DNA from: Owenia fusiformis | Taxonomy: Eukaryota | Assembly: GCA_903813345.2 (NCBI GenBank) | Contig: CAIIXF020000001.1 | Coordinates: forward strand, 14,508,001-14,572,000 | Direction of reading: 5' to 3' | Length of the DNA: 64,000 nucleotides | Shown: one piece after another, positions 1 to 60,500 of the stretch | How the letters are laid out: each line of letters opens with the position of its first letter | Position numbering within the stretch: the stretch's first letter is position 1 | The notes under the pieces: generated by a model | Seen by the model: only the letters and a program-made list of their open reading frames with translations | The model's database searches: none | Told to the model about the DNA's origin: nothing | Program-made: the position numbers and the translations under genes

Positions 1-100
1 GTGATTTTGGCCATTGTTGGACCAAAATTGTCACAAGTGAAACCCCCCTGGAATTTTTCAAAAAGTGAACCCCCCTTGGCAAATCCTGGCTACGGGCCTG
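1..100. mobile_element. Right terminus of a non-autonomous TIR DNA element (CCTGGCTACGGGCCTG end), truncated by the window edge
   Basis: Ends in ...cccccttggcaaatcctggctacgggcctg. The identical 16-nt terminus occurs at 29555-29570, and related termini bound 48610-52684. Confidence 0.6.
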
Positions 101-28920: not shown

Positions 28921-28934
28921 TTAGACGGAACAAA

Positions 28935-29570
28935 ATTTAGGAGTTTTGGGCTTATTTGGCACCTTCTGAGCGATTCTTGGATCAAAATATATGATTTACG
29001 TATTTCAAAAAAATGAATTTTTAGGCTTATTTGGCGCATTCTGGGCAATTCTGTTGCATTCTTAGCAATTCTAGGATCAAAATATATGATTTACGTATTT
29101 TAAAAATCGAAATTTTAGGCTTACACGTTCTGAGCGATTCTAGGATCAAAATATATGATTTATTAAAAAGGGCATGCTCCCCTGAAAAAGTTAAGATTTT
29201 TGGGCTGATTTAGTGTTTTCTGGGCAATTCGAGGATCAAAATATATGTATATAAATTTATGTATTTAAATAAAAATTGAATATAGGCTTATTTGGCACCT
29301 TCTGAGCGATTAAAGGATCAAAATATATGATTAATTTCCGAATCATTTAGTTGCCTCGCTATTCTAGTAGTCAATTTGAGAATTTTATAAAAAGAAAGTG
29401 GCAATCACATCAAAATACACCGTACATATGTCACCAAATGTTACCTTCTACCTCGAAATGTCAGAAAATTCTTCAAGAAAGCAAAAAAGGTAGGTCCACA
29501 TTATTTTAGGAGATATTTGGGGGGGGCTCGCACGAGCCCCCCGAGCCCCCCCCCCCTGGCTACGGGCCTG
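28935..29570. mobile_element. Right part of a TIR element with short subterminal tandem repeats
   Basis: About five copies of ttt(a/g)ggcttatttggcaccttctgagcgattctaggatcaaaatatatg. Terminus cctggctacgggcctg, as at 85-100. Confidence 0.7.
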
Positions 29571-38944: not shown

Positions 38945-41900
38945 ATGGTTCGCTACGAAACAACTCTGCTTACGATTGGCTTTGGAAGTCTTGTCATATT
39001 CAGCCGCATAGGAACGTTCGTTTTCACCCCTCTGTGGATTGATTCCTTGACATCTTGCAACGGAACAGTTGCCAATACTTCAATGGTACCATCGTACCGA
39101 CGTATAGACACCTTTTTTATTGTGCTATCACAGGGCGTTTCATGCACATCAATCTTCGGAGTATTGTTGCTATTTGTTCTTGTATTTTTCCCCAATAAGA
39201 TCTCAGAGGTGGAATGGAAATATCCCAAACGCCAGTTCCTCATCCCAGGTACTGCAATGACATTATCAGCCATTCTAGGAAATGCTGCACTAAGTGGGAA
39301 AAGAACAGCTCCATATCTTGCTTCCGTTCTGAGCAACTTCAATATTCCCATTACTTTTGTGATAAGGTAAGTCAAAGTCTATACAGTAGGGAGTTTAAGA
39401 TTAGCGTAAATAACCCATTTACCTATGCACTGGTGATCCACTCGATTACGCTGGTTACCAAAACGAGCCGTTTTGGTAACAAAATGTCGGAACGTCGTAC
39501 GATTTTTCTCGTTTCCTTTTTTCACGCGTTGTAGGCAGAATCCCAACGACGTTTTTTCTCACAACGTGTATCAGTAACATATCTTTTAGAAAATGTACAT
39601 GTTTGTGAAAAATAGACGATTCTGTTGAACTATTTGTTCGCAAATATGTACACTTTCTTAAAACATATGATACTGATACACGTTTGTGTTAAAAAATGTC
39701 GTGGGAATTCTGCCTACAACGTGTGAAATAAGGAAACGAGAAAAATCGTACCTTCGATGTTCCGACATCTTGTTACCAAAACGAACCGTTTTGGTAACCA
39801 GCGTAATCGAGTGGATCACCAGTGCTTTACCTATGAGTAGTTTGTTATTACACTAAGCGGTATTTTACCTAAGTTACAGGGTTGACCGAAGATAGGTAAT
39901 TCGAAAAAGTATGTTTTTATCCAACAAATTATGTCATTTCTATATCAAGTATTATCCATTAAACTTTAAAATAGTAACAACAATCATTTCTCAATCGATT
40001 TGCATAACAATTAAGTGGTCGAACACATTCATTGATGCGATAAACAATGCCATGTGATGATGCATGAAATTGTTGAATTTACACATTCTTCATCAGTTTT
40101 GCTTATTGTAAATGTACATAAATCAGCCATTTTCTCGTGCTTTTAATTGTTTAACTTTACTATTTGGTCACTCTCATTGCTGGATCTTAAGTCACTGCCC
40201 CATTAGCGGGCCCACAAGCAACACCCCCTCCCAACTACAGTAGCAACACCCGAGCTCTCTGAAGTATATATAACAGTTCTTGGAGGTGACATGTACTGTT
40301 ATATGCCATATAAGCCATCGCATGGTTTTCATTCTACAATTAGAATGTTAATTTTATCATAAATTGTAGCATGCGGTTTCGTAGCCTTTTACGTTAATCT
40401 TAAACTTATTTTGCAATACGCATTACCTACGTATCCGTAACAAACATACGGAAAGGGATAGGTACACGTATATTTTTACGCTAATCTTAATCTCCCTATT
40501 GTGACAAAATAGTCTTATTTTGCCATTAACATAAAGCTAGTGTCGTTTATTGTTACACAAATATTCAATGTAATTGTAAGTGCAAGCCCTGATTTTTGAT
40601 TCCAGATTCATAATTCTAAGGAAAAGACCAACCCTTAAGAAACTGTTATGTGCTATTGTTGTCTCTTTATCTGAGTTCATGTGTCTCATTCCGAGTATTT
40701 TTCCCTCTTTGGAGACAAGTAGCCAGCACCAACAGGATGGAGGGGCACAAGGAGTAGCAGGTGTGTTGTGGCCTCTCTGCTTTGTTTCGTCAATGGTAAG
40801 ATTGGCCTTATTTTAGCCCTGAGGCTAATAGTTTTTATCGTAACTTTGTAAGGTGAGTTTGTTAGGCGGTCAGTGTGTGATGACGTCGGCTCGCTTTCTG
40901 TCCGTACATTTCCAGGAAAAGTGAGCGACAGATTAATTCGACTGGTAATTAATCTCGGTCACTGCGTTCCCTCGGGAAATATTGATATCATTCTTGTGAT
41001 ATTCCCCTTATCATATCCCTCCTGGTGAATAATTACTTTTTTATCCTATGGATACGAAATATATATAGAGGATATCCTATGAGTTTATGCTCGTGCAGAT
41101 ATCAATAACCATGAGTGGATTAAAATCATATCACGAGTAAATCATAGGATGTTCTTTTTATTCCATAGTTAAAGTCATCATCTGAATCGTCGGAAATTAA
41201 GTCATTTAATTCGAATTTTCCAAACGATCCGGCGATGTTGACACTTAGCCTCGTTTTGAGTCTGAAGTAGCAAAAATCCATAAACCATTGCATACGACGT
41301 CGTATGTCATGGCTAAAAAACCGTATGCTATGGTTAAGTGAAAATTTGTCAAAAATATCATATTTTACCACTGATTACAAAAATACCGTTTTTATTTTCA
41401 CATGTTATCCTATGAATATCATGCTAACTATGGAATAAATGGGGATAACGACATAAGATAGTTTTGGTATGCGGCACTAAAATCGTATCCGACTGATATG
41501 ACGTGATATTCAATCGTATCTGACGGATACTATTTTTTCATTAGTTTTGAATTTAGCGCCGAAAATTGTTTGACAAGTATAGCAGCCTTGCCTAATATTG
41601 AACTTCCAGAATATAGTTCCAAACATTATGTGCTCATTAAAATAATTTAAATGTTTTCATGCAATCACTTTATTCGGTTTACAATGTAGGACCCGAACAC
41701 AATAAAAAACGAGATATTATATTATATTGTATTTCATACCTACTGAGGTTCTAGGTACATAACGAGCGGGAATATATAGTGTATCTAGGGACAGGGATGG
41801 ATACACGCACGCTGTATCCATCCCGGTCCCGGCCCTGAAATTTTTTTTCAAAATTTTTTTCAATTTTTTTCCATTTTTTTCAATTTTTTTTTTAAATTTT

Positions 41901-44467
41901 TTTTTACCAAAATTCAATTTTTTCACATTTTTTTAGTTTTTTTTTAGATTTTTTTTTAAAATTTTTTGAAAATCTCGCAAACTTTAAGACCAAGAAAACG
42001 CCTAGTACCTTGAGTATGTTTTGGAATTTTGGATCTTTATAAGGTATTGATGTACCTAGAACCTCAGTAGGTATGAAATACATCTGTTATGTACGGTCGG
42101 TTTTGGATACAGGGTTTATCCCGCGGGAAATATGTGTATCTCCCTCGGTCCCTGCGGTCCCCTCGGGAGATACACATATTTCCCTTGGGATAAACCCTGT
42201 ATCCAAAACCTCCCAGTACATAACCCTTATGTATTGTATTATAATTATATTATATTATATTTTATCCTATGCCAAGTACAGTTTTAGGGAGATCAGTTTG
42301 TAAGATATATCCCGTATCCTGATTTTGAGGTTTCCATATCCAGAACCTCCATATCTCCCGGCATATCTCACGCTTCGGTGCATATCTTCCCGCTCCGGTG
42401 CATATCTTCCCGCTTCCGGTAAGTAATGGAAATGCAATAAAATGACTTTGCATATGAATGATTTGTTTATTTTTGCACCTTGTACTATTGAAATGGCCAT
42501 ATGCCCCTGAAAACTCTACTTGGTATAGGATAAAGCAGTTATATACGGTCGGTTTGGTTATTGGGTTCAAACCTCGTGAGATATGCACATCTACCTTCGG
42601 TGCCTACGGTCCCTCAGGTAGATATGCATATCTCCCTCTGGATAAACCCCATATCCAAAACCTCCCAGTACATAACCCTTATATATTATATTATTATATT
42701 ATATAGAACCTCATATGATTTCAGATTCCATTCGGATTAACAAATACACTCAATGAGAGAAGTGTTAAAAAGTCAACTGGTAACAGCTCTGAAGATAAGC
42801 GATTGAACATAATATTTTTTCTCTTTGGATACGGGTTTTCTCAGTTGATTTCAGCTGTAGTGCTATTTTGGGCAGATATCATCCCCGGCTTTGGCAATGC
42901 GTCTGGCATCTCAAATCTGTTCGAAACGTAAGCCCTGTATTGCTAGAAAACATACTTATCTCTGATAGAATTATAAAATTTAATGTTGAATAAAACATTC
43001 TTCGATTCATGCAGTAAAACCTGTATTACTGAACACCTCCTATTCTGTCCAAAAGAGTTAAAAGAAACTCGAAATGTGAACACCTACCTGTTTTTGATGG
43101 CGCAATAATGCTCAGACAAGTTCTACTTATTTAGAATGATCCATGGCTAGGGTAAAATACAATAAACAACAATAAATATATGTATTATAGACCCTTTATC
43201 CGATGAATCAATGTTTCTTTGCCTATCTCATCCCATGTTTTGTTAATACCATAAGAACCATTTTTACCATTTTTCATGCAGATGGTGGTTTAATGCTCAG
43301 TGTAGTATTGGGTTGGCAGGATGTAGTGCAACACAAGCTTTCTATTTTTCTGGATTGATGTGGTGTTATATCATTGCAGACATAGGGATTAATCTGTTCC
43401 TACGCTTTACAGAAGGGGCAAATTATCTTGTCATGCTTTTAGTGAGTATCTCAAATACAATCTAAACTATACAGTGTTGTAGACTCCCTCCATAAGTTTG
43501 GCAATCGTACGGTCCCATTGGATTGTGCGCATAAGCCTGTTCAATTTCGTATACGTTTTTACTGCAATAAGTGCATGGACAATCTCAAACTTGATGAATC
43601 GCTAAAAATAATCAGGCTTTAACACTAAGTTAGAAAGACAACTGTCTGTTTCCAAAATTTAAATTAGAGGGGTGTATTAATAGATTGACGAATTATTCCG
43701 AACAAATTTAAATACTATGAAATTATCCTAGGATAATTTCATCTGTGAGAATAGGTTCATCAATAAAATATAATATAATAATAATGCATAGAAACAGGTA
43801 GACCTAATACATTACGGACAAGATTTTTGCACGAAACATCCAAAATGGCCGCCTTATAGTTAACACAGCATGCCTCAAAAGTATTACCTCAGACCATGAA
43901 GCATCTCTGAAGATTTGAAATCAATGCTTAAATGTGAAATTATATTGCTCAAAGAGCAGGGCATGCCATTGCATCTTTGATCATTTGAGTATGTAATCGT
44001 ACATTTATACCATATTTATGTTTTCTTTCAGACAATACGTACTCCACTTCTCTTTCTATTCTGGACCTTGTTCAGGGAATGTCCCTTCTATTGGGATCCA
44101 CATGCCAATCTTAGTACTTACTTGAGTATTGGTGCGATCGCTCTTATGCTTCCAGCCATGTATATTTACAATACTGGGTAGGTATATGTTACGTTAAATA
44201 TCAATCGATATTTTGGCTCATTTTTATAATATACACTCTCTTTCTATTCTGGACCTTGTTCAGGGAATGTCCCTTCTATTGGGATCCACATGCCAATCTT
44301 AGTACTTACTTGAGAATTGGTGCGATGTATCATGTATGCTTCATGTTTGTTTCAGAGACCCAGAGCATATTGCAAAAACACCGTCGGAGACAGATGCAAG
44401 AAAACCATTATTAGCCAATGACAAAACCTGTGACAGATATGGAAGCAATGTTCATGATATACAATAA
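38945..44467 (+). CDS. CRT-like transporter (chloroquine resistance transporter homologue, DMT superfamily), paralogue A, 410 aa, 6 coding exons
   Basis: Exons 38945-39366, 40606-40795, 42725-42927, 43282-43441, 44032-44177 and 44356-44467 are all GT-AG and sum to 1233 nt in one frame ending TAA. About 10 hydrophobic segments. Motifs KRTAPYL.SVLSNFNIPITFVIRFIILRKRP, FWADIIPGFG, QCSIGLAGC and EGANY resemble crt-homologue proteins. Family call is by recognition, not search. Confidence 0.85.
39387..40498. mobile_element. Non-autonomous TIR element in intron 1 of paralogue A
   Basis: TIR tagggagtttaagattagcgtaaa / tttacgctaatcttaatctcccta. Absent from the equivalent 131-bp intron of paralogue B (empty site ...tcta|ttgagacaaaa). 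Confidence 0.8.
39427..39825. mobile_element. Mutator-like palindromic MITE with 9-bp TSD
   Basis: Long TIR gcactggtgatccactcgattacgctggttaccaaaacg...; TTTACCTAT on both sides (39418-39426, 39826-39834). Confidence 0.88.
40935..41462 (-). mobile_element. Crypton-like non-autonomous element, reverse orientation, hairpin partly lost
   Basis: Residual hairpin apex ctcggtcactgcgttccctcgggaaatatt followed by ttatcctatg repeats. The architecture mirrors the adjacent elements. Confidence 0.4.
41725..42235 (+). mobile_element. Crypton-like non-autonomous element
   Basis: Perfect 30-bp IR atttcatacctactgaggttctaggtacat (41731-41760 / 42050-42079), then a terminal hairpin at ~42086-42224. Confidence 0.7.
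42258..42690 (+). mobile_element. Second Crypton-like element directly downstream
   Basis: IR tttatcctatgccaagtacagtttt (42261) / aaaactctacttggtataggataaa (42510), then a hairpin at ~42538-42675 homologous to the previous one. Confidence 0.7.
44237..44326 (+). repeat. 90-bp intronic duplicate of part of exon 5 (44049-44138)
   Basis: 89/90 identical by eye; no splice sites at its edges. Confidence 0.9.
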
Positions 44468-45329: not shown

Positions 45330-46520
45330 AAAGTACATACAGTAAATAAGCATATAACAATTAAGTATTTGTAACAAACATATTTACAATTGCTTCACAG
45401 CCTCATTTAAAAACTTACATAATGCTAACAATACTTTACTATCAGATTGTAACAGCTTGGCATATTTAAAAGTACTAATGTTTTTACAAAAATATTGGGG
45501 TAAATATTGTTTTCTACATTCTAATATAAAATGAAATTCATCTCCTAATGAATTGTTATTACATAGTTCACAGAATCTTCTATTTCTTTCTACATTTCTA
45601 TACCTACCCCTCTCAATAGGTAATTTTGTGTTGGACATTCTGTATTTTGATAAAATGACTCTAATTTTTGTGAGGCAGTGAAAATAAGTAGTAACTTAAA
45701 TTCTGTTTTAAAAATTCTATAATTAAAACCTATGCTACTATTACTTACATCATTTTTTCATTGTTAGTGCTTAATCTATACCAATATTTTAATATACATA
45801 AATCAGATTTTACTCTTAATGGCATTCTCCCTAACTCACCATAAACCATAAAGTTTGGTGTTGATGCTTTGACTTTAAGGATTTACTTTAAAAACTTTAA
45901 ATGTAATTTTTCTATTTTTGTATTGTTGATAAAGCCCCATACCTCACCCCTATATAACAAAATGGGGACAACAAGCGTATCAAAAAGATGTAATTGTGTC
46001 TTAATTGGTAACGAATATCTATTACGCTGGCTAAGTATAGCAAACATGGCCTTTTCTGCCTGGCTATATACATTTTTAATACTTTGATTAAATCCATCCT
46101 TTTGATCAATAATAACAAGATATTTAAAAACAGACACATTTTCACGTTTAATTCCATCCAAAACTACATTTTGAATACCTCTTCTACCAGTTTTATTATT
46201 ACTAAAAACCACAACCTTGGTTTTATCTAAATTGATGTGGACTTTCCATTTTTTACAATATTGTGATAATTTAGAAAAGGCATTTTGCAAATTGGTCATA
46301 GAATTAGCAAATATCACAGTATCATCTGCATACAATAGAACAAGCAACTTTAAAAGTACATTTAGTTGTGCGTAGGTTCACAATAGGTTCACAACTATTG
46401 TCAAGTAAAAAGGCTTCTACATCATTTATAAACAAAGCAGAAAGCAAAGGGGAGAGATTTTCTCCCTGACATAGCCCTAAAGATGGGCTAAAAGATCAGA
46501 CTTTTTTTACATTATTGCCA
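45330..46520 (-). mobile_element. 5'-truncated LINE (RTE-X-like) ORF2 remnant
   Basis: Minus strand: CQGENLSPL, LLYADDTVIFA, YCKKWKVHINLDKTKVVVF, and C-terminal KLPIERGRY...RFCELC...GDEFHFILEC, with frameshifts. Confidence 0.88.
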
Positions 46521-46858: not shown

Positions 46859-47139
46859 TGAGATACACAACTCTTAATATATATAGACGTGCACGGACCT
46901 GAGGACAATTCGGGAAATACGGGCTAATCTCAGCTTTAAGCGTTAATATCTGCCTTATTTAAAAAGCTAACTATGTGTATTATATATCATTTTTAAGTAT
47001 TTTTTATTCGCATTTCACTGAAATTATTTTTCCTTGAAAAGTATGATGGGATCTACCATATTTTTTAAGTTAAATGTACTCCGACATCGTCAGATACGCT
47101 GTAAGGCGTTACATTTCACGCTTACACGGTTCGTTGAAA

Positions 47140-47790
47140 TCGGAATAACTTTTGAAATACTGATCAGAATTTTACTAAAATTTCACATTTTATTCATTGA
47201 AACATGTGTTTTTATGACGTCACAATTGCCTAGCGGATACAGTTCAAATCGTCTTATATGAACGCTTTTAAGATTTTCAAAATTGTGTAAGGTTTTGAAG
47301 GCGAAGGAGACAAGCAATAAATTTACCTTTATTTAACCTTCTAATTTAGGTCTGATTTCAAAAAAATATTAACTGCATAATATTGTCATGTCGAAATTTA
47401 CAAAACAATAACCGATTTCTTTCTTTTTCAAATAATAAGAGAATAAGAGTTGCTTTTAGAGACTTGACAAAAATGTAACGCATCGATTTTTACCACAAAT
47501 CCCATACATATCAATTTTTACTAACGCCCCAAGTGGATTTCCTGACCGTTTTTCAAAAATCAAAAACATTTTAGAAATATTGTCCTCGAGATCTTCATGC
47601 TCTGTGAATTTCACCAGGATTGAATAAGAATAAAGCATCTTATTTATAGGTTGACTAAACTTGACAAAATGTAACGCTTGTCGTCTTTGACGTTATAATG
47701 CTGATTGCGCCCTATACGGCCCATTGTATTGTTTTTGTATTTTGACGCCATAATGTTACTCTAATTGTCCCCTGTTTCGTGCGACGTGTA
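47140..47790 (+). repeat. Interspersed DNA-element fragment; inverted homologue at ~62140-62790
   Basis: For example, aaaacattttagaaatattgtcctcgagatctt (47563) is the reverse complement of aagatctcgaggacaatatttctaaaatgtttt (62333). Collinear over ~650 bp. Confidence 0.8.
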
Positions 47791-48609
47791 ACTGTGTTGC
47801 GTCATATAATGTGTCGGTATTATGTTTCGGTAATCGAAAACCGATGACAATTTTTTATAATCTGCTTATATTTTAAAACTTACGTTCATCTAGACATAAC
47901 TTTTGCTATCACATGGTAGAATCATATAATCGCCACCGAATGGACGTATGGAACAATAAAACTGACAAACTGCGTGCATAGTATGGGTTGGATACCGCGA
48001 CGTGCAAGTGATTGCTGCTCTCCGCCAGAACCAACAGATGAGTTAAAGAGGTGTTTGTGACAAAGAGAGACGAACCAGTCTCTGTGTCACGTGTAGAGAA
48101 ATGGTGGCCAGGTGAAGGGTTATGGTCTGTAATCTTTCATAGAATGAGAGACAATGGTGTGACTTATTTAAAGTTTAACCTTTTCATAGTAAATCTGAAA
48201 CTTGTGTTATGTAAGTCTTGTGACTAGAATTAATCTCCAGTCCCAATAACATAATGATTTACCTTGGCAATTAATTTCACCCATGCGCGAAAATACAATG
48301 ATTATTCAGTGATTATTCTGTGGACCATGATCACATATGAAAAAACGACATATCATTGGAAAGAGGAAGTATAGTTAGATGTTGAGATATTTCCTCCCAA
48401 ATCATTCATAAATTGGCGAAAGCAAGCATGGAAGAATAACTCATGAAATAGATTCTTCGGTGCTTTATATACACAGTGAATATAAAACAGTCCATATATT
48501 CTTAAACACAAGTGTCCCTTTTAACACTCTTGACATGATTAAAATCATAACATCTTGTTACTTAAAACATGTACACAGATTACATTGACATCAGGACCCA
48601 GACATATAT

Positions 48610-51600
48610 CACTGGCGTAGCTAGGATTTCTCAAGGGGGGGTGCATGAGGCAAATTTTTCAGATTAATGAGGCAAAAAACTCGGAAAGCGGCAAAAAGTG
48701 TCAATGGGACAAAATCTACTCACACATCCAGTCATCTAGTACCAGTCAAAAAAAGAATATATTTTATTTAATAATGTATTTTAATACCCTAGACATCATC
48801 ATTTTTTTACGCACATCATTTCTTACAAGTATTTAGTGGGTAATCTTCAATATATTTCATTTTAAATAATGCTAAAATTAAAATGCCAAGGCACCTGCTT
48901 GCAGATATGTATACTTACCTAGTAAATCATAGTGACCTTCACGGCCTTGGCAACTGGTTTTGTAAAATAAATGGATAGTGTGTTTCTTTCCGCCAGAGTA
49001 CTCTGCAATGATTTTCTGCCTCCACCCATCCTCAGATGTGAACACTTCTTGATGAAGGAGGATCCTAGCCTCAAGAACATCTGCAGCAAGCTGAAAAATA
49101 AGATAATAAATAATCTGTTATACAATCTTATTCTAATGACTGTGATAAACCTACATACTTTTTAAATGATAAATACCACAAAGTGCCACAACCTAAATAA
49201 ATAAAAAATTAAAAACTATTATTCTAGTAATAAGAGACTTGCATGGTCAACTGTACATGATTATAATATATAATACATTTACACATTATAGTGTAGGTTC
49301 GATGTAAAACTTTTTTCTTTTTAAAGTACATATTAATACTAGTATTATCAATAACTTGTCTTATTTGATCTCAGAGGCTCAGCTAAGCTAGAATATTTTA
49401 ATTGTATTATAATAAACTTTTGAAAAATCTTGGTAACAAACACAAATACTAGGTATGTTCTTAGGCAGAATCAGATCTATAAGGTGGCTTAATTGCAAGC
49501 AATGTTCAGTTGACATACCAATATACTCCTTACAATCTCAAATATAATATAATATATTCCAAAAGACTCACAACATGTTATAAATTGATGAAGCTACTGA
49601 GGATTCAAAGTTCCAAAGAAAATAGACCCGACAAGGAATGATATGAGCTCAAAATATTCTTAAATTGAAATTAGTTTTGTCAAGAGTACTCTCAAGGATT
49701 TTGCCAGATTAGATTCAGCCTTTAAGTATTGGTAATTCAAACATGCCAAGTGTGTCTCAGCCAATCAGCTTGGAACATTTCAGTGTTTTAATTTATTGAT
49801 AAATGCATGAAAATGATTTTGCTGTGCATTTAATTTTTGATAAATGCCAGCCTCACCAGTACTATTCTTTAAAAAGGGGTGACAGCATATCATCAGTGGG
49901 TTCATTTCAGTCAATGCTATGATTTTCCAATCAAATTTTCATAATTTTTCTACATCAAATTAATTATTTAATTTCCTATAATATTTTGACAAACAAAACC
50001 TCAATAGTTTTCAAAGGAATATCAATTGTAACCCAACACCCCTATTTAGCATTTCTTTATAATAAACTTGTCCAATACATTTTGATTTCTTCAAAGACAC
50101 TAATCTTGTAAATGTAATTGGTGAACAGTTCTACTTCATCATCACCAGAGTCATGTTGCAATAAAAAATCATGTATCATTCTATATTGGAAATATATAGT
50201 ACATACACTCATGCTTTTATATTTTTCCAATATAGAATGATACACGATTCTTTATTCCTTAAATAGATGAATAACTTTACATAATTTGATAAAATAAATA
50301 TCAAATAAAGATTCTTCAAGTCAGTGTTTTCAATCTTGTCAGCCTTTCCATCTCTAATTTGATACATAAGTACATGTCTTTAATAGTACATAAATTTAAG
50401 ATACTGTAGTGTGTTTACTGACTCACCTGGAGCTCAAATTCTCCACCTTCAACTCCCTCTCTTGTCATATTTCTCATTTCCTCATCAAGTGATTTATATC
50501 TCTCCATCGGAACACATCCTCTTTCCTTGTACTTTTTTTTATGTTTATTGTAATGACGACATATTTTTCTTCTAAAAGTCAATCCTGCTTGTCGCTCTTT
50601 TACATATGTAATTGTTGAGTCACAGCCTCGAGATAAGGCCCGGAACATACAAGACCCATCTCCTTGTATTTTCACCACATCAACTGAAAATAATAAGTGA
50701 TCAGTGAAGTTTAACAGACAATGATTATTTTATGATTATTTTATTCATATTACATATTCTTTTCAGAGTGATTTTCGTTTTCTTTGAATAGCGTAACCAA
50801 TTACAAACATTTCTTTATTCCAATTCTAGGATCCAATGGAGGATCCCAAACTTGAATATCACAAGGCTTTATCCCAGCACAAAATTTTCAGAATTATTCC
50901 AAAGCCTCTGGAAAATATTTTGACTAAGAGTATTCTACAAAATCAGATGAATGAGGATTCTTTGAGTTGACCTTTTAGAGCATGGGTATGGTAGTGGCCT
51001 CGGAATTTGTGTGACAACAATTATATAATCAATTGAATTATGTTTGTGAATTATTATCATTTCACTCAAAGTCTTTATTTCATTAAATATTTAATTTGAA
51101 AACATAGGATCAAATCCTATGCTAAGGGCTGATGTGAAAAAAGTCACTCCACCCTGGTGGGAATCAAACCCACAACCTCACTCCTCATAAATGTACATAT
51201 AACCCTCTGTTCACAATACCATATTACGAGATCCAGAGCTTTCATTAAGAAGTGATGATATGTCTTGTGTACTTGATAAATGTTTTTTTTATGGCATTGG
51301 ACGTGATGTTTGGTATGGTATCACTCACTATCTATCTTTTTAGTATGATTATTATTAGGTAGTTACGTACATGTTGAAGTACATTTCGACATATTCCCTA
51401 AACATACATGGGGTGATAACTTATAGACTTACCCTCCACAGATGATTCATTGATTGGTATTGCACATTACTTTTGGTATGGGATCCTACTGATATTTATG
51501 TATTTGTACGGGTATGGACCTATATCCTCTTGGTACGGGGTTGGGGCATGTGAACGATTTGATATCAAAAGGCCACGAAGCCTCGCCAATGCTCAATGGG

Positions 51601-52684
51601 AATATAATAACATTCAATGAGAATGATATCATGATCCTGGCAAACGCCTTCAAATGCTGACGCACTTGCCCAGCCTTTATGAGATCCCGGGAATATGATT
51701 TGTATATAGATAATCTATATCAAATACAGGAGAGTTCAGCACATGACGAAAGGAAAAAAAAGTGAAATAGGCTTCAAAGAATCAGGTGTGTTGGTTCCAT
51801 ACCTATAGAGACACAACTCTGGCGAATATTTTAATAAGTGGCAGTTGTAAAAATACACAATCTATATCGTGAAAAGTGAAATTCAGGAATGGGGGAAATA
51901 TATTTAAGAGAAAGGGGTGTCAGCTTAGCAGACAACTTTTGAGTGGTTGGCTCCTTCCATATAAATACGCAAAATATGCGAAGCATGTTTATTTAAATGT
52001 ATCTTGTTAAAAATGGGTATATGCATCGTGATTATTCATCAACAGAAAAGAGGAGAGAATTTTTTACGAATCCTTCCACCCCCACACTTATAATGGACAC
52101 GACCATGCTAACACAGCAATATTCTTCTCAAAAAACTTGAAAATTAATCGTCTTGTTCCTACTGTTCTGGTTTTTATTTTTCAGTATTTTTACGCTCAAA
52201 AAGTAACTATTACTTACATTCATCACCTCTACAAATCATCCTCTCACAACTAATCCAAATTATATCGTAATCTGTAGAATTCAATTGGAGCATTTACAGA
52301 AGATTTGTGCTCAGGCTGTGCTTTTCGTTCAGTGTTGAAGGCGGGATAAAATTTCTTGCGCAAATTTGAAAAGGTTGCGCAATACACTATCATGGTCAAA
52401 TTTATTCGCGCAGTGCTACAACCGGAAGTTTATGAGAACGAAACATTCTTTCTCTCATTTTTAATAGATCTTGGGTATTAATCAGAGTGACATTCCAGGT
52501 TCTCGTATGGAAAGTGGCGTCAAAGCCATGGAGAAAGTGCTACAAGTGACTTGAGGCAAAATATTCACGTTTTTTCTGAGGCAAATAAAAAAAAATTGAC
52601 GAGTCAAATTTTGTAAAAAGCGACGAGGCAAAACTCAAGGGGGGGTGCAAGCGCACCCGACGCGACCCCCTGGCGACGGCCTTG
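48610..52684. mobile_element. ~4.1-kb TIR DNA element with TATAT TSD carrying an OTU protease gene
   Basis: Left end CACTGGCGTAGCTAGG; right end reverse complement CAAGGCCGTCGCCAGG. Subterminal GAGGCAAA repeats and ctcaagggggggtgca at both ends. TATAT at 48605-48609 and 52685-52689. Confidence 0.7.
48919..50683 (-). CDS. Spliced OTU-domain cysteine protease (deubiquitinase-like); two exons, gene ends not defined
   Basis: Exon 50683-50427 (ttttcag|..DVVKIQGDGSCMFRALS...GVEGGEFELQ|gtgagt) joins in phase 0 to exon 49090-48919 (ttttcag|LAADVLEARILLHQ...KHTIHLFYKTSCQGREGHYDLL|gtaagt). Cys-loop, V-loop and His-loop motifs are all present, with no stops. Confidence 0.78.
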
Positions 52685-52757
52685 TATATGATATCTTATA
52701 TGATACATAGCAACTGTTTACAAACTAGGTCTATGAACAATATCACTCTATGATTTA

Positions 52758-54396
52758 CACTGTTGCTCATAAATATGGAATATTAGATTTGGCAGCTCAG
52801 AATTCAAAGTTTTGAGTAAGAGAACATTTATTTGGAGTTGGCTCAGACATTTATTTTCTAGGCAAATCATAACCACATATTTCACCTACAAATCAACATT
52901 TTTTAGAGAAAAAATATTAACATTTAAGTTTAGAAAATTACTGTTACTTAAACAGGGGTACGCTAAGAATTTTTGCATTTTCAAAACAGCCTGATCCAAA
53001 TCATCATGTAAAACAGATCAGACAAAATAAACATCTGGTCATGAAGATTGAAGTGTCCTCTATCCAATAATAGCACAAATATGTGATATGTCCTCTTTGT
53101 GCTGCAATCAGAGCATCGACCCTACGGGACCAGCATTGAATGAAACATCTGACCTTTCAAAGTGAAATAAGGCCCCATTCCCCAATCTGGGCAGTGCGTA
53201 ATGTGTCTAAATTTTGAGATTGGGGTCCAAGTCACGAATCTCATTACCAAGGTCGTCCTACATTTGCTCTGCATTAGCCTGATTAGCTGAGTTTTGTGCC
53301 CATGGTACCTGGTCCACATTGCCTGCCCTGGTGTAATCCAACATGATGCCTCTAGCATATGCAACAGCATGATCATTCTGCAGTTGAATGTTGCCCCAAA
53401 ACACTCTGTTTACATGTGGTACTTGATGGAGGTCCAAAAGGTCAATTTACTCTGAAATTATGTTTGGGAATCACCAAGGGGGTGCAATTTCTGTAGTACT
53501 GCTCCAAACAACCTCTGTAATACTGCTCCAAACATAAAAAGGGTCGCCTTCATGGACTGCCACATCAGTAAGTGTCCTTATTGTCTCTTTCCCCTGGTCT
53601 ACGACAGAAACGAACACAATTGTCAACTTTGTGGAGGACACATCTTATTTCTTCACATGCTTTCATATGATACCAAAGATTAGGTCCAACGTTTTGGTGC
53701 TTTCCTGCCCATTGAGGGCACCTTTCTTTGTTATGATCAGTCAGCTGTGGTCTCTTTAAAGATCTCATGGCCTTGCATCCGTTATAAAGAAATCACTGGT
53801 TGTCTATAGCTCTGGAACACGGGCTTTGTGGTGAGACAGCCATTCATCTCATAGCCTACTGGTTGACTTAAAGCGATGTTGATGACATAAATGCAGCAGA
53901 TGGTGGTCTTTTCTTACATTTTTCTCTCTAGGGCTACTATTGCCATGACCTAGAGTCATATTCCAGTGCCTTTGGTACCACTGCAAAATTTTAGAGACTG
54001 TTCCTGACACACCCCTAGGGTCCTGGCAATGGCAGTTTGTTTCATGCCAGAAAGCGCCATCCCTATGACCTGCCATGCTCTTTTTTCTCTATATTCTATG
54101 GGGCATGCCTTCTAAAAACTCTTAATTAAATTTTTATAAAATGTGCACAATGATTACAACTAAGATTTGGACACCTCTTTCAAGTTACCAATATCATGAG
54201 GTCATGGGGTCACCTGAGTGAATACAAGTTTAATCAACCATAAATGTTTTAACTTTTCATACCAATCAGTTTTATATGCAAAACTGATGAGGGAATGAGA
54301 ACACAATACAAAATTTCATCAAAATGTTATCATTTTGTAGAAATTCCATCGAACAGTTCGTATCTATAAAATATTCCATATTTATGAGCAACAGTG
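52758..54396 (-). mobile_element. Full-length decayed Tc1 transposon
   Basis: TA-flanked perfect TIR cactgttgctcataaatatggaatatt. Minus-strand transposase remnants include GTVSKILQWY, KRPQLTDHNKERCPQWA, and LQNDHA..ARGIMLDY...VPWAQNS.. (corresponding to FQQDNA..H / WPAxSPDLN). Confidence 0.88.
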
Positions 54397-54511
54397 TAGG
54401 TCAATCACTTGACATACTGAAAGGTGCTCAGCTATAATAGATGAAGATCGCAATCGTTAGACGGTACTACCATTCACGCAGAACACTTATTATAAATGGA
54501 TTGAACGCAGT

Positions 54512-57500
54512 ATGGTTCGCTACGAAAAAGCCTTGCTTACGATTGGCCTAGGAAGTCTTGTCATATTCAGCCGCATAGGATCTTTGGTTTTAGTCCCGCT
54601 GTGGATTGACTCCACATCATGCAACGGAACTGTTGACAATACCTCAACGGTACCATCTTACCGACGTATAGATACCTTCTTTATCGTGGTTACGCAGGGC
54701 GTTACAAACACATTGTTATTTGGAATTTTGTTGTTATCTCTTCTTGTATTTTTCCCCAAAAAGATCACAGAGTTTGAATGGAAATATCCCAAACGTCAGT
54801 TCCTCATCCCAGGTACTGCAATTACAATATCAGCCATTCTAACTTGTGCTGCACTGAGTGGGAAAAGAACAGCTCCATATCTAATTTCCGTACTGAGCAA
54901 CTTCAATATTCCCATTACTTTTGTGATAAGGTAAGTTAAAATCTATTGAGACAAAACAGTCAGTTTAATGTTTTGCCATTTACACAAAGCCAGTCTAGTC
55001 TATCGTCTCGCGATCAGTTTATTTGCAAATACAAGTCCTGAGACTGATTGTTTTATTCCAGATTTATAATTCTAAGGAAAAGACCAACCCTCAAGAAACT
55101 GTTATGTGCTATTGTTGTATTTTTATCTGAGTTAATGTGCCTCATTCCGAGTATTTTTCCCTCCTTGGAGACAAGTAGCCAGCACCAACAAGATGGAGGG
55201 GCACAGGGAGTAGCAGGTGTGTTGTGGCCTCTCTGCTTCATTTCATCAATGGTAAGATTTGACTGACCGAGTGTCCCAAAAATGTGCCCAAATGAAAAGA
55301 GGTACTTTTTTCCTTCATCGAAAAAGATACAGGATAAAAACAATTCATCCTCAAATTAGCAGTTAAAATGTATCGAAAATTGCCAGTTACTCAGAAATAT
55401 GACATTTTAGATGACATGCTCTAAATGACCTCCATCACGATTGAATGAATACTGAATTCTAAACTTGGAAATGGGTCATGGTGCAAGACAACCTTTTCTA
55501 ATAACTAGTAACTTAGAATTATCTGGTGAAACCACAGGGGCTTGTCTGGAGGGTCGGGCAAGCCCTCCGATATGTTTTTACTGATCTAACCAATACACAC
55601 TCATCGGAGGGCTTGTCCGACACTCCAGCCAAGCCCCTGTGGGTGAAACGTTTAGATGTTAATGATAGTTAAATTGTCAAAATTGACTAAATTGACTAAA
55701 TATTCCTTCATCACTTACTAGTATTCCATGTTTGTCTTGGTACAATTTTGGACATCCTGTCTTCATCTCCCAATATTTTTTATCGTAACAATGCAATGTA
55801 TTATGGGTGAACTTGGTGATTGGGTGACATCGTCTTTCTTTTCTTCATATTTCTAGAAAAAAGGAATCGACACTTTCAGGGATGTTTTAGTTTTGGTTTC
55901 TAGAACAGATCATGTTTAGGTTTTAGCGCGATGGGCAGATTTTAAGGCGGCCATTTTATAAGCCTATATTCCTATGTCGTGTCATTTCGACATTTAATGT
56001 TATACTCTTTTACAAGATGACCTTGCGTGGCGAGAAAACTGTTAAATCTGATTATTAAAAGTTTGGCGAAAACATTTAAGATTACTTTCTCGACACAGCC
56101 CATTCTTTGCTAGGAAATGTGACATGGCAAAATGTATTAGTGTAATATATAATTAAGCAAAGGCTTTGAAAAAAACATATTGTTAGAATTTTTGCTGGTC
56201 ATATAGGTCTTTCTTGTGCAAAAATGAGAGAATATGATGTTGCATTGTAGCAGTCATGGCAAGTGAAAATTTTGTGCAAGATCGATATTCGAAAAACTGC
56301 TAAAATACACGGTGGGCCGAACAAATGTTACTTATCTAGTATACAATCAGAATTAGGGTAACAATTTTAGCCCATTCCACTGGTGATCCGTTCGATTATG
56401 CTGGTTCCCGAAACGGTTCATTTTGGTAACAAAATGTCGGAACGTCGAAGGTACGATTTTTCTCACAAACGTATATCAGTATCATATGTTTTAGAAAATG
56501 TACATGTTTGCGAAAAATAGCTCAGAAGACGGAATCGTCGATTTAATTCCTCACTTAAGTTACATAAACGGTTTGGGTTAAAAGTGCAGATCTTAATTAA
56601 CTGTTTTTCGAAAAACCGTTTATGTACAGGGTGTCCCAGAACTCATGAGAATTTTTTGAGGGAGCTATAAGGCATGAATGATTTTCCTTCAAATTAAGTG
56701 CACTTAAAGGGACCCAACACCATGGTCACATGATCAGTCGTGTGGAGGTAAGCTCCCAGTTGAAATAAAAGCACTGTCCTCCTTTGGTTTCTGTGAAAAG
56801 TAGCTAATACCCTCATGTATTGGTCAGTTTGTGTGTCACACGACTAATCCATACCATATGCTTCATTCAACATATTTTATGCTATTGAGCTGCATATATA
56901 AACAGTACTTTGCAACTAAGGTCATACAGTATACTTACCCCTTGCAAATTGTAATTTATTGAATTCACAGTAAACCCATCAATTTTTAAGAAAACAAAGA
57001 ATATTGTTCTCATGGATCTATTATTTATGTTAGACTAACTATGAAAATATAAATATGAAATAATATGTTAGCTTGAAGTCATATATAAGATGAAAATATA
57101 TGTTCATGCATTTGCATTTTTCCAAAGGGAATATTCCCATGTAAGTAAATACAGGTGCAATATATAATTTATATGTATATCTATGTCATCTGTCTATACA
57201 TGCGCGTATAGCCTAGTGTTACATGTGAACAAGATCGTTCTGGAAAGAAATGAGCGTGGCAGATTTGCTAAAAAGCCACATACACCACAAAAGCAAGACC
57301 AATTTGAAAGTAAGTTCATTATTATTCTCAAGGGTACACTTCAAGTGAAAGCTACATTGCTACAGGGTGGCCTATCATTCTGAGACAAATGTATTATCCA
57401 ACGATTGTGATTTTCACAGCTAAAATATGATATCTTGAGCAGATGGAAATACATTCCCATGAGATATGTATATATAGTCAAAAGTTATAACTATTTATTG

Positions 57501-60500
57501 AGTGTAATGAAATGTATCCTTCGCTAACTGCTTTTGTTTGAGATAGTTATCATGAAATATTTTTAAATTAATTTTTATGTGTGTCATTGATCCTAATCCA
57601 CACTGTAGTCTGGTGTTTGTAGAGCATTGCGACTCGTACAACTTATTCTCACAAATATCAAACCTCATTTACTAATTAATTTTTTGTGTGAACATGAAGA
57701 GTCCAAGCATTGCTTTTTTATGTTTATTGTATAGCTATATTTAGCCTTGATATCCATGATTTTTCAAAAGAAAAAAATTGAAATTCTAAGACGGTGAAAA
57801 ATCATTAAAAAATACACAGATTCAGAATCCGGCAAGCATTTTCCCTTATTCCTCTCCGTTAAGAAGTTTTGTAAGGTGTTGGATCCCTTTAATAAACAAA
57901 CATTGAGGAATAACTGACATGAATTTCAGGCACATATCTTTTATATTTCTGAATTTATTGACATTTGAATTCTACATCGCCACAAACCCTGGAGTAGTCA
58001 GAGAAATACAACAATTTACGTCACATTTTGATAATATTTATACAACTTCTCTACTATAATAGCATTGTTTTCATTGAATTATTTTAGCGTTTCAGTACAT
58101 TAGTTAATAGGATCATACACATTCAGCTAACGTATCTCTACAGAGTTATTATAGCATATTATCTGCAGTTGATGTCGTCTTTTCAGCTTCTCTTTATACA
58201 CATTCCCAAATCCCCCAATAGCCATTTCTGTAGGGTGCTCTGAAACAACATGACTCAATTCTTCCTCTGTTTCAGTGACATGGCTCACTAATCTTTGTTT
58301 AAGGTCCCCAAATAAATCAAAAGTCCAGTAGAGCAAAATCTGGCAAGTATATGGAGCTACTATGTACTGTGAAGTCTCAATAGAAAGTAAAGTGGATGCC
58401 TTACTGACATGCATGCAGTGACTTATTGACTGGTGCATTGTCAATATGCAAGATCATATTGGCTAGCAAATGGGGACATTTCTTTCAGTCCCTCAGGAAC
58501 ATGTCATTATGATTTTTTAGCAAACCAATTGTACAATCTGTTGATGTATTGGTCTCTATCAAAGTTTATATATTGTTTTATCAAAGTGCATCATCAATAT
58601 GAGAAAAATGCTGTACTAAGCTTATACAAAAAACATTGGTTTTATAGTTGAGAATTTGTATAAAATTGACAAAATGTGACATAAACTGTTGTATTTTCCC
58701 GATAACTCCGGGGTTTGTGGCGATGTAGAAATTTCAGTAAATTCGAAAATATAAAAGATATGTGCCTGAAATTCATGTCAGTTATTCCCCAAAGTGTGTT
58801 TAATAAGTGTACCAAATTTGAAGAAAAATCACCCATGCCTTATATCTCCCTCAAAAAATTCTCATGAGTTCTGGGACACCCTGTAACTTAAGTGAGGAAT
58901 TAAATCGACGATTCTGTCGTCTTCTGAACTATTTGTTCGCAAATATGTGAAACATATTTGTAAAACATTGCTGAAACATGTGATTCTGATACACGTTTCT
59001 GTTAAAAATGTCGTGGGAATTCTGCCTCCAACTTGTGAAATAAGGAAAAAAGAAAAATCGTAGCTTCGATGTTCCGACATTTTGTTACCAAAACGAACCG
59101 TTTCGGTAACCAGCGTAATCGAGTGGATAACCACTGCACTGTATAGCTCTCTGAATAGTGGGAAATTAAACATATTGTATTATTGTATATTACATTACAT
59201 GTACTAATATTATGATTCTCAAACACACTTAATCATTTCAGATTCCATTTGGATTAACAAACACATTCAATGAGAGAAGTGTTCAAAAGTCAGCTGGGAA
59301 CACCTCTGAAGCTAAGAGATTGAACATAATATTTTTTCTCTTTGGGTATAGTTTATCTCAGTTGATTGCAGCTGTAGTGCTATTTTGGGTAGATATTATC
59401 CCAGGCTTTGGCAATGCGTCTGGCATTTCCGATCTGTTTCAAACGTAAGTCATATATTACAGGATTTCATTTTCATTTTAATGTAGCTAATATTCAATTG
59501 ATGTATGAATAATATTATAAAACACAATAGATAACGGTATTTCAGTAAATAATTTTACATATAGACTCTTTATCCAATGATTATGCCAATGTTTCTTTGC
59601 CTTTCTCATCTCATATTTTGTTTCTACCATAAGAACCATTTTTACCATTTTTCGTGCAGATGGTGGTTTAATGCTCAGTGTAGTATTGGGTTGGCAGGAT
59701 GTAGTGCAACACAAGCTTCCTATTTTTCTGGAATGGTGTGGTGTAATATCATTGCAGATATCGGGATTAATCTGTTCCTACGCTTTACAGAAGGGGCAAA
59801 TTATCTTGTCATGCTTTTAGTGAGTAAATTTTTACACCCCAACAAATTAGTAAAGTTAAAATCTAACAGTGCAGATCTAGAATATGAGGATCAAAACATA
59901 CAAGGATACGCATAAGGAAAATTGGAATCATAAATCAGCTTTGTTCCATTAATCTTATTCCTATTCATACCCCATGTCGCTTTTTAACGACTGACGATTA
60001 GAAAACTTTTAAGGGGGGATATTAAAAAAACACGCAGAGTGCAAATAATATATAAGCACAAGTGCCAAAGGGAAAGAACCAAAAGTTGTAATGGAACTTA
60101 GCAAGAAAAAGCAAACTCTAAGTGCATACCAGTCAAGAAAAACAAACCACATATAGCCAAAAACCATGATCTAACGTGAAAAGAAACAATGTCTAATACC
60201 CCCTTTCCCCCACCATTCATGAACCAATATCACAATCCAAGACCAGAAGACCAAGGGACATTTCATTCATACTGAAGTCATTACAATATATGTTGAAGAA
60301 AAAATTAGAAATAGATAGCCAATACTCATAACCTCAAAAATAGTTGTAGATACAAGTATTCATACAAGATAGAGCATTCAGTCTCAAATGATGTGGGATA
60401 GATATTAAAATCCAGTCTCCAAGTCCATAGGCGTTTCAAAGGGTCAACATCCATTCACAAAAGCCGTCGCCATAATCCATAAAACACAATAATGCATGAT

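What the first reader, a model, noticed from the sequence alone, without database searches (positions are those of the whole stretch)
48610..52684. TIR/TSD-bounded DNA element carrying a spliced, catalytically intact OTU deubiquitinase-type domain and no visible transposase
Seen: imperfect TIRs (CACTGGCGTAGCTAGG / rc CAAGGCCGTCGCCAGG), GAGGCAAA subterminal repeats at both ends and TATAT on both flanks delimit a 4075-bp unit. Inside, two minus-strand exons (50683-50427, 49090-48919) with canonical splice sites join in frame to give GDGSCMFRALS...GGEFELQLAADVLEARILLH...IHLFY...GHYDLL. The ORF track shows the first half only; the His half lies in a frame it does not report. Established: D-x-x-C and H-x-D are the OTU catalytic motifs, and OTU domains occur as cargo in viruses and in some mobile elements such as Helitrons. 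Inference: this is a cut-and-paste-type element that mobilises a ubiquitin-editing enzyme, either captured host exons or an accessory anti-silencing/anti-degradation factor. Related termini at 85-100 and 29555-29570 suggest a wider family.
Basis: partly seen in the sequence, partly recalled or inferred. Interest (0 to 1): 0.8.

Follow-up and report, generated by a model that had tools for sequence, protein, structure and literature searches.

The report
Transposon-like unit carrying an OTU protease remnant
A 4-kb stretch of an annelid chromosome looks like one defective cut-and-paste transposon that still holds the two exons of a ubiquitin-removing (OTU) protease but no transposase, and the protease may be left over from a transposase gene that once began with it.

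Summary
Exons 50683-50427 and 49090-48919 (minus strand) join in frame. The public Owenia fusiformis gene model for this locus uses the same junction. The modelled product folds as an OTU protease.

The two ends share a terminal motif found at exactly four places in the window. One end is of each of two sub-types, in the right orientation. They carry the same subterminal motifs and are flanked by TATAT (chance about 0.002). One insertion is the likelier reading.

- The OTU frame has no start codon ahead of its catalytic Cys, and the public model starts after it.
- A strong splice donor after the His box leads nowhere.
- No transposase remnant was found.
- The gene is single-copy among annotated proteins.

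New lead: the only long relative found outside Owenia is an unnamed 849-residue protein with an N-terminal OTU fused to a hAT-type transposase.

Best reading, about 45%: an internally deleted, hAT-like (5-bp duplication) non-autonomous element that kept the OTU-coding front of its transposase gene.

Main rivals: captured host exons, or a host gene sitting by chance between two element fragments.

The parts
48605..48609 (.). Left copy of the putative 5-bp target site duplication, TATAT
   Evidence: Read. Chance of a 5-mer flank identity at this spacing is 0.002.
48610..48625 (+). Left terminus ('A-type'), CACTGGCGTAGCTAGG
   Evidence: One of the four exact matches to CANNNNCGTNGCNAGG. The next 18 nt, AGGATTTNNCAAGGGGGG, are shared only with the terminus at 70-87(-). 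Alignment.
48626..48700 (+). Left subterminal region: the 16-mer CTCAAGGGGGGGTGCA (48630-48645) and GAGGCAAA at 48647 and 48669
48878..48918 (-). Unused strong splice donor GTAAGT (48918-48913), followed by the read-through tail and stop codon (48880-48878) used by the public gene model
   Evidence: tblastn of P0002 covers 49096-48881.
48919..49090 (-). OTU exon with the His box (..IHLFY..GHYDLL); 57 codons plus 1 base
   Evidence: Translation. P0002 match. Pfam OTU hit on profile positions 55-128, 17.5 bits. Beta-sheet half of the OTU model.
49091..50426 (-). GT-AG intron of 1336 nt. It holds a dispersed repeat piece (49491-49658, similar to 14975-15214) and a 39-nt-arm hairpin (50160-50256).
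   Evidence: Junction as in P0002.
50427..50683 (-). OTU exon with the Cys box (GDGSC..). It starts in phase 1 behind AG 50685-50684 and has no in-frame ATG before the Cys.
   Evidence: ORF 50415..50729. Pfam OTU 13.5 bits on profile positions 1-46. 43% identity to paralog P0003.
52218..52293 (-). Candidate first exon: ATG, then 25 codons, then a phase-1 donor AAT|GTAAGT. Unverified.
   Evidence: One of 5 candidates from a simple scan, 2 of them inside the unit. No similarity to the paralog's N-terminus.
52553..52658 (+). Right subterminal region: GAGGCAAA at 52553, 52578 and 52625; the 16-mer CTCAAGGGGGGGTGCA (52634-52649); a short G/C hairpin (52643-52658)
52669..52684 (-). Right terminus ('B-type'), CAAGGCCGTCGCCAGG, followed inward by a G-run, hairpin and C-run as at 29491-29570
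52685..52689 (.). Right copy of the putative target site duplication, TATAT
21..100 (-). A-type terminus of a related element (CAGGCCCGTAGCCAGG + ATTTGCCAAGGGGGG). Its body runs off the window start.
29491..29570 (-). B-type terminus of a related element (CAGGCCCGTAGCCAGG + G-run/hairpin/C-run). No partner terminus was found to its left.

Best explanation
48610-52684 is one insertion of a non-autonomous cut-and-paste DNA transposon. It has short imperfect terminal inverted repeats, clusters of a subterminal 8-mer that would serve as transposase-binding sites, and a 5-bp target duplication.

Its only coding content is a two-exon OTU deubiquitinase domain on the minus strand. I read this OTU as the surviving 5' part of a gene that in the autonomous ancestor continued, through the splice donor now dangling at 48919/48918, into transposase exons lost by internal deletion. 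This is the way Ds elements derive from Ac. The most likely superfamily is hAT, of the kind that makes 5-bp duplications (hAT5-like).

If the element moves at all, it would be moved in trans by a related transposase. In the ancestor, the OTU domain would have removed ubiquitin from the transposase itself or from proteins at the transposition site.

In this copy the domain keeps its catalytic codons, but no start codon ahead of the Cys was found. It is therefore either a recent remnant or made from an unseen upstream exon.

Shown: the OTU fold and junction; the shared termini and motifs; the flank identity; the existence of an OTU-hAT fusion protein related to this OTU.
Inferred: a single insertion event; the hAT affiliation; the deletion history; any activity.
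For: Boundaries:
- 4 of 4 exact matches to CANNNNCGTNGCNAGG in the window are the two ends plus two other element termini.
- The L end shares AGGATTTNNCAAGGGGGG with the terminus at 70-87. The R end shares the G-run/hairpin/C-run layout with 29491-29570. The unit therefore has one end of each type, in the correct orientation.
- 5 of the 7 GAGGCAAA matches and both copies of a perfect 16-mer lie at the two ends.
- TATAT flanks termini whose positions are fixed by alignment to the other copies. Chance is 0.002; any duplication of 5 bp or more is about 0.0025.

OTU:
- P0002, an exact match annotated in Owenia fusiformis, uses the junction.
- P0002 model: pLDDT 73.3. All 3 PDB matches at E<=0.001 and every listed row are OTU-family domains.
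- Paralog P0003 passes Pfam OTU with 24.4 bits against a cut-off of 23.3. Its model also hits OTUs: 39 matches at E<=0.001, with all 31 rows listed being OTU domains.
- The 141 codons are stop-free where chance gives 6e-5.

Transposase link:
- The profile search of longer proteins gave one hit among 8000 scored, P0006.
- P0006 has OTU at residues 22-175 (26.2 bits) and DUF4371 (75.8 bits) in one 849-residue protein.
- Its nearest Atlas cluster carries DUF4371, FAM200-ZBED5 RNase-like and Dimer_Tnp_hAT.
- hhalign of the Owenia OTU profile against P0006: 97.6% probability, E 3.4e-12, 142 columns, 32% identity.

Compatibility with hAT and gene structure:
- hAT families with 5-bp duplications exist (passage of PMC12730594 citing Repbase Reports).
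- The donor after the His box is strong and unused. The paralog's two isoforms diverge at the same residue, which I infer marks the same intron position.
Against: - No transposase remnant is in the unit. 0 of 10 interior ORFs hit Pfam, and tblastn with P0006 matched only the OTU exons.
- The gene looks single-copy among annotated proteins. The exhaustive search gave 3 hits at E<=0.001: the locus itself, one paralog cluster at 43% identity, and a spurious bacterial repeat protein. P0002's cluster has 1 member on 1 contig.
- The interior is single-copy in the window apart from one intron piece.
- The TIR match is 11/16, which 20 window 16-mers reach by chance.
- The subterminal motifs are direct, not inverted.
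- The classical hAT 8-bp duplication is not present, and the YARNG start fits only the R end.
- P0006 comes from an unnamed assembly of unknown organism and is only 26-32% identical. It shows that such fusions exist, not that one exists in this genome.
- No in-frame start codon precedes the Cys.
- Copy number, empty sites and transcripts were not testable.
Confidence: 0.45

Rival explanations
1. The OTU gene is an ordinary, lineage-specific or long-domesticated host gene. The two ends are fragments of two separate insertions of one abundant element family that happen to lie either side of it. The 4075-bp 'unit' never moved as one piece.
For: - The OTU is single-copy among annotated proteins and is annotated as a gene.
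- A 43%-identical paralog on another chromosome is annotated as a normal OTU protein.
- The neighbourhood is full of element debris: an RVT_1 fragment at 45883-46374, a TA-flanked TIR element at 52756-54398, and repeats at 47131-47791.
- Both other termini of this kind in the window are solitary.
- The TIR identity alone is at chance level.
Against: - Two independent fragments would need to be one A-type and one B-type, correctly oriented, of the same sub-family (shared 16-mer and GAGGCAAA clusters), and flanked by the same 5-mer (chance 0.002).
- The gene lacks a start codon before its Cys and has a dangling donor. That fits a truncated gene better than a maintained one.
Confidence: 0.25
2. 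It is one non-autonomous TIR element that captured exons and an intron of a host OTU gene at the DNA level, as Pack-MULEs and other gene-capturing transposons do. The OTU was never part of the transposon's own gene set.
For: - The same boundary evidence as for the best explanation.
- The intron is retained, which argues for DNA-level rather than RNA-level acquisition.
- The fragment lacks a start and an end, as captured pieces often do.
- A cellular-looking paralog exists.
Against: - The only paralog found is 43% identical in protein, far too distant to be a recent donor.
- Yet the open frame (chance 6e-5) argues against long neutral decay.
- The nearest long relative outside Owenia is a transposase fusion, not a cellular OTU.
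Confidence: 0.15
3. It is a Helentron/HINE-type rolling-circle element. OTU reading frames are known cargo of that group.
For: - Helentrons carry OTU-like proteases (passages of PMC4067079 and PMC9741609).
- The element has short terminal or subterminal inverted repeats.
- A small G/C hairpin lies near one end (52643-52658).
Against: - There is no Rep/helicase or endonuclease remnant (ORF-level only).
- Helentrons and HINEs make no target duplication and sit in T runs with at least two T on each side (passage). Here a 5-bp duplication is present and only one T abuts each end.
- The hairpin lies inside the terminal repeat, not beyond it.
- The nearest fusion relative is a hAT-type protein.
Confidence: 0.03

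Closest known systems
Internally deleted non-autonomous hAT elements (Ds from Ac), and the hAT5 group with 5-bp target duplications
   Same: - Short imperfect terminal inverted repeats starting CA.
- Clusters of a short subterminal motif at both ends.
- Size of a few kb.
- The front of a gene is kept and the rest deleted.
- A 5-bp duplication, as reported for hAT5 (passage of PMC12730594).
- The OTU's nearest long relative is fused to a hAT-type transposase.
   Different: - No transposase remnant and no autonomous partner were seen.
- The 8-bp duplication of classical hAT is absent.
- The YARNG terminus rule (recalled, not from a call) fits only one end.
- An OTU domain on a hAT transposase was not found in print in my searches.
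Ginger1 DNA transposons, whose transposases carry a C-terminal OTU or Ulp1 domain (PMC2836005; abstract and passages read)
   Same: A cut-and-paste element of marine invertebrates in which an OTU protease is part of the transposon's own coding capacity. Introns are present in the gene.
   Different: - Ginger1 has 40-270-bp TIRs, termini TGTNR, and CCGG or CCGT 4-bp duplications. Its OTU is C-terminal to a Gypsy-like integrase.
- Here the TIRs are 16 bp and begin CA, the duplication is TATAT, there is no integrase, and in the related fusion protein the OTU is N-terminal.
Helentrons/HINEs with OTU reading frames (PMC4067079 and PMC9741609; passages read)
   Same: Mobile DNA of animals that carries OTU-type proteases whose activity has not been tested. 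Non-autonomous deletion derivatives are common.
   Different: That group uses rolling-circle mechanics: no target duplication, T-run insertion sites, a Rep/Hel/endonuclease gene, and a 3' stem-loop beyond the subterminal repeat. None of these is met here.
Cellular and viral OTU deubiquitinases (OTUD1, OTUD3, OTUD5/DUBA, yeast Otu2, nairovirus vOTU)
   Same: The fold (TM 0.5-0.63 to 4bop, 3tmp, 4bou), and the D-G-x-C and H-Y-D boxes in the expected places.
   Different: - 11-20% identity.
- The exhaustive sequence search with exon 1 found no cellular OTU at E<=0.001.
- It is a small stand-alone domain with no partner domains.

Membership tests
OTU cysteine proteases (Pfam PF02338) | Profile match above the curated cut-off | tested here: inconclusive
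   The window's pieces score below the 23.3-bit cut-off. Exon 1 scores 13.5 bits on profile positions 1-46. P0002, which lacks the Cys box, scores 17.5 bits on positions 55-128. The full spliced peptide could not be submitted. Paralog P0003 passes with 24.4 bits over positions 1-128.
OTU cysteine proteases (Pfam PF02338) | Catalytic Cys box (D-G-x-C at a helix start) and His box | tested here: met
   GDGSC in exon 1 and GHYDLL in exon 2 align with the same boxes of P0003, P0005 and P0006. However, no start codon precedes the Cys.
OTU cysteine proteases (Pfam PF02338) | OTU fold: a helical lobe plus a beta-sheet | tested here: met
   P0002 model: pLDDT 73.3, pTM 0.69. The top PDB matches are OTUD1, OTUD5, Otu2 and OTUD3. 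P0003 model: pLDDT 62.6, with the same families on top.
OTU cysteine proteases (Pfam PF02338) | Deubiquitinase activity | not testable with these tools
   Needs recombinant protein and ubiquitin substrates.
hAT superfamily (non-autonomous member) | 8-bp target site duplication (5 bp in the hAT5 group) | tested here: inconclusive
   The 8-mers ACATATAT and TATATGAT do not match. The 5-mers TATAT and TATAT do, at chance 0.002. hAT5 with 5-bp duplications is on record (passage).
hAT superfamily (non-autonomous member) | Short TIRs with the YARNG start (rule recalled, not from a call) | tested here: inconclusive
   The R end CAAGG fits. The L end CACTG and the two related termini CAGGC each miss one position.
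hAT superfamily (non-autonomous member) | An autonomous partner with the same termini that encodes a hAT transposase | not testable with these tools
   No genome is held. There is no remnant in the window. The link is indirect, through P0006.
Ginger1 | TGTNR termini, 40-270-bp TIRs, CCGG/CCGT duplication, Gypsy-like integrase | tested here: not met
   The termini begin CA, the repeat is 16 bp, the flanks are TATAT, and there is no integrase ORF. Criteria are from PMC2836005.
Helentron / HINE | No target duplication, insertion in T runs, 3' stem-loop beyond the subterminal repeat, Rep/Hel/endonuclease partner | tested here: not met
   The 5-bp flank identity, the single T on each side, the hairpin inside the terminal repeat, and no Rep/Hel remnant at ORF level. 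Criteria are from PMC4067079.
Mobile element in general | Several copies with the same ends and different flanks, or an empty site | not testable with these tools
   No genome. The window holds no second copy of the interior.

The most novel reading that the evidence does not exclude
There is an undescribed lineage of hAT-type transposons in marine invertebrates whose transposase begins with an OTU deubiquitinase. The Owenia unit is its Ds-like derivative, which still makes a stand-alone OTU protein. Copies of this kind supply deubiquitinase in trans to the family, or are the raw material from which small host OTU genes such as the paralog P0003/P0005 were domesticated.
Probability: 0.25. Interest if true: 0.6.

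Novelty: new variant of a known kind. Interest (0 to 1): 0.42.

Why it matters
Ubiquitin-type proteases turn up again and again on mobile DNA: Ulp1 on Mutator, OTU on Ginger1 and Helentrons, and tegument-like proteases on Helentrons. As of the 2022 paper read, no transposon or viral OTU domain had been tested for activity.

A third, unrelated transposase type (hAT) carrying an OTU would strengthen the case that removing ubiquitin is a general need of DNA transposition. A small deletion derivative that keeps only the OTU would give a compact protein to test.

For this genome the practical point is smaller. The annotated gene at this locus is probably a transposon remnant whose model starts after the catalytic cysteine.

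Tried and rejected
- **Whole genome.** None is held, so there was no copy count, empty-site search or partner search.
- **Sequencing runs.** 24 were listed and no RNA holder was listed.
- **Six-frame Pfam scan of the whole unit.** It was replaced by a scan of 10 interior ORFs, with 0 families, and by tblastn with P0006.
- **Homology search in the window for the paralog's N-terminal and C-terminal exons.** At chance level: 50 of 100 and 73 of 100 shuffles reach the observed score.
- **Word-indexed searches.** With P0003, only itself among 89 candidates. With P0002, only itself among 12.
- **PDB profile search.** Only weak OTU hits, E 0.048-0.8.
- **Related loci for P0006 or the OTU alignment.** None in metagenome contigs or viral contigs.
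- **Rfam and tRNA scans of the region.** Nothing above threshold.
- **Literature search for the terminal 12-mers.** It returned only unrelated primers.
- **Literature searches for OTU with hAT.** Nothing relevant. Repbase Reports and paper supplements are not in the library, so 'not in print' is limited to these searches.
- **Earlier findings of this scan.** None for this genome or these sequences.
- **Transib (5-bp duplication, CACWATG termini; recalled) and PIF/Harbinger (TWA duplication; recalled).** Considered and set aside, because the termini and flanks do not fit.
- It was read in the wrong phase.
Full report
**Where the window comes from**

The window is AT-rich (32-39% G+C). It holds spliced genes and much repeat debris. 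A 144-residue database protein, P0002, matches the locus letter for letter. Its sources name it as an unnamed or uncharacterized protein of the annelid Owenia fusiformis, on a 62-Mb contig. No whole genome is held for the window.

**Checking the observation**

- The left terminus is CACTGGCGTAGCTAGG (48610-48625). The reverse complement of the right terminus is CAAGGCCGTCGCCAGG (52669-52684). They agree at 11 of 16 positions.
- That match alone means little: 20 16-mers in the window do as well against the right terminus.
- What lifts it above chance is the family context. The pattern CANNNNCGTNGCNAGG has exactly four perfect matches in 64 kb. One further match has a single mismatch. Shuffles give 0.78 at that looseness.
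- An alignment of the four termini has 10 invariant positions in the first 16 and shows two sub-types.
  - The left end and the terminus at 100 continue with GGATTT..CAAGGGGGG.
  - The right end and the terminus at 29570 continue with a G-run, a short hairpin and a C-run.
  - The unit therefore has one end of each type, facing inward.
- The two ends also share a perfect 16-mer, with 2 matches in the window against 0.09 expected.
- They hold 5 of the window's 7 copies of GAGGCAAA.
- These shared motifs are in direct orientation, not inverted. The best inverted alignment of the two 150-nt ends is weaker than the direct one.
- The termini positions are fixed by the alignment to the other copies. 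With those positions, the flanks are TATAT on both sides. Random pairs of positions at this spacing show this at a rate of 0.002.

**The coding part**

On the minus strand, ORF 50415..50729 and ORF 48878..49117 hold the two halves of the domain.

- Exon 50683-50427 ends on a full codon before GTGAGT.
- Exon 49090-48919 starts on a full codon behind a pyrimidine run and AG.
- P0002 uses exactly this junction.

By Pfam the halves score 13.5 and 17.5 bits for the two halves of the OTU profile, below the 23.3-bit cut-off.

Indirect evidence for the OTU identity is consistent:
- The 43%-identical Owenia paralog P0003 passes the cut-off over the whole profile.
- 27 of 30 language-model look-alikes of P0003 are OTU clusters.
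- The model of P0002 (pLDDT 73.3) and the model of P0003 (pLDDT 62.6) both find only OTU domains at the top of the PDB: OTUD1, OTUD5, OTUD3, Otu2 and nairovirus OTUs, at TM 0.5-0.63.
- The 141 codons are free of stops where the local stop frequency gives a chance of 6e-5.

**What is missing from the gene**

- Exon 1 starts in phase 1 behind an AG. The frame upstream has no ATG before a stop.
- The public model therefore starts at the Met one residue after the catalytic Cys. That would give a dead enzyme.
- A scan for upstream ATG exons with a phase-compatible donor gave five candidates, two of them inside the unit. The better one is at 52293-52218. None resembles the paralog's N-terminus.
- At the other end, exon 2 stops one base into a codon at a near-consensus donor (TAG|GTAAGT). 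The public model reads through it to a stop 13 codons on.
- The paralog's two isoforms, P0003 and P0005, diverge at exactly the same residue. The read-through residues of P0003 are what a GTGAGT donor would encode. This is my inference from the protein sequences. It points to a shared intron position, and so to a downstream exon that the window's copy no longer has within reach. The left terminus is only 309 bp away.

**Relatives**

- An exhaustive profile-free search of 1.84 billion representatives with exon 1 found three proteins at E<=0.001: the locus itself, the paralog, and a spurious bacterial repeat protein.
- Word-indexed searches with P0003 and P0002 found only themselves.
- A profile of the Owenia sequences, searched against longer proteins, found one hit among 8000 scored, P0006.
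- P0006 is an 849-residue protein from an unnamed assembly. It has an N-terminal OTU domain (26.2 bits) followed by DUF4371 (75.8 bits).
- Its nearest Atlas cluster carries DUF4371, the FAM200-ZBED5 RNase-like domain and the hAT dimerisation domain. P0006 is therefore a hAT-type transposase with an OTU at its front.
- Profile comparison with the Owenia OTUs gives 97.6% probability, E 3.4e-12, 142 columns and 32% identity. It includes a shared RYKSLD stretch and the GHYDLL box.
- tblastn with P0006 found only the two OTU exons in the window, and nothing of the transposase part.
- Ten interior ORFs gave no Pfam family.

**Reading**

The boundary evidence favours a single insertion of a non-autonomous TIR element.

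Three facts fit together:
1. The OTU frame is open but headless.
2. It ends in a strong donor a few hundred bases from the element's end.
3. Its nearest long relative outside Owenia is the front domain of a hAT-type transposase.

They fit if the unit is an internally deleted derivative of an element whose transposase gene began with OTU exons.

A 5-bp duplication is not the classical hAT signature. However, hAT families with 5-bp duplications have been described (passage of PMC12730594 citing Repbase Reports 2007).

I put this reading at about 0.45. That the unit is one insertion of some TIR element I put at about 0.65.

The rivals:
- A host gene lying by chance between two fragments of the same family: 0.25.
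- DNA-level capture of host exons: 0.15.
- A Helentron-type element: 0.03. Its no-duplication, T-run and 3' stem-loop features (passages of PMC4067079) are not met.

**Comparison with what is known**

- OTU domains on mobile DNA are established. Ginger1 transposases carry a C-terminal OTU (abstract and passages of PMC2836005). Helentrons carry OTU frames (passages of PMC4067079 and PMC9741609).
- This unit meets none of the Ginger1 structural criteria: TGTNR termini, long TIRs, CCGG duplication.
- My searches for an OTU on a hAT transposase found nothing relevant. They do not cover Repbase Reports or supplements.
- I therefore rate the finding as a new variant of a known kind, with moderate interest. 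The locus itself is probably a dead or dying single copy. The useful product is the lead to OTU-hAT fusions.

**Limits**

- Copy number, empty sites, the autonomous partner and transcription were not testable.
- The absence of a transposase was tested only at ORF level and with one hAT query.
- P0006 comes from an unknown organism.
- The shared intron position in the paralog is inferred from protein sequences only.

Noticed in passing
window 52756-54398: A 1.6-kb element with perfect 29-nt inverted ends (TA plus 27 nt) lies 71 bp to the right of the OTU unit. Its minus-strand ORFs are broken. One gives a weak HTH_23 hit of 18.1 bits, below the cut-off. It looks like a decayed Tc1/mariner-type element.
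   Followed up: partly
window 38897-44464 and 54464-64000: Tandem duplication (83-95% identity) of a gene whose first long exon gives sub-threshold CRT-like transporter hits of 22.1 and 20.5 bits. The OTU unit lies in the spacer between the two copies. The second copy runs off the window, so a second copy of the spacer cannot be excluded.
   Followed up: partly
window 47131-47791 and 62136-62795: A 660-bp repeat in inverted orientation, 86% identical. It is probably a dispersed element.
   Followed up: no
window 45883-46374 (-): A reverse-transcriptase fragment (RVT_1, 40.8 bits) of a non-LTR-type element.
   Followed up: partly
window 28930-29570: The B-type terminus at 29570 is preceded by five copies, about 90 bp apart, of a subterminal repeat (28932-29329). 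The stretch abuts what reads like the C-terminal end of a retroelement ORF at 28700-28930. No partner terminus was found.
   Followed up: partly
window 11026-12826: A satellite-like array of about a dozen 142-bp units.
   Followed up: no
window 34253-34760 and 37430-37959: Long inverted repeats of about 500 nt, 93-99% complementary, enclosing about 2.7 kb. This is a young foldback or long-TIR element.
   Followed up: no
window 22114-22473 and 22711-23080: Inverted repeats of 210 nt and 130 nt (82-90% complementary) forming a roughly 1-kb foldback.
   Followed up: no
window 55542-55632: A near-perfect palindrome that hits the mir-3688 model on both strands at about half the gathering score (46.6 of 84 bits). 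It is probably a small hairpin repeat rather than a microRNA gene.
   Followed up: no
window 7525-9048 (+): An intronless 507-residue open frame, the longest in the window. Not examined.
   Followed up: no
window 50160-50256 and 49491-49658: Inside the OTU intron there is a hairpin with 39-nt arms, 92% complementary. There is also a piece 76-86% identical to 14975-15214. These are small nested repeats.
   Followed up: no
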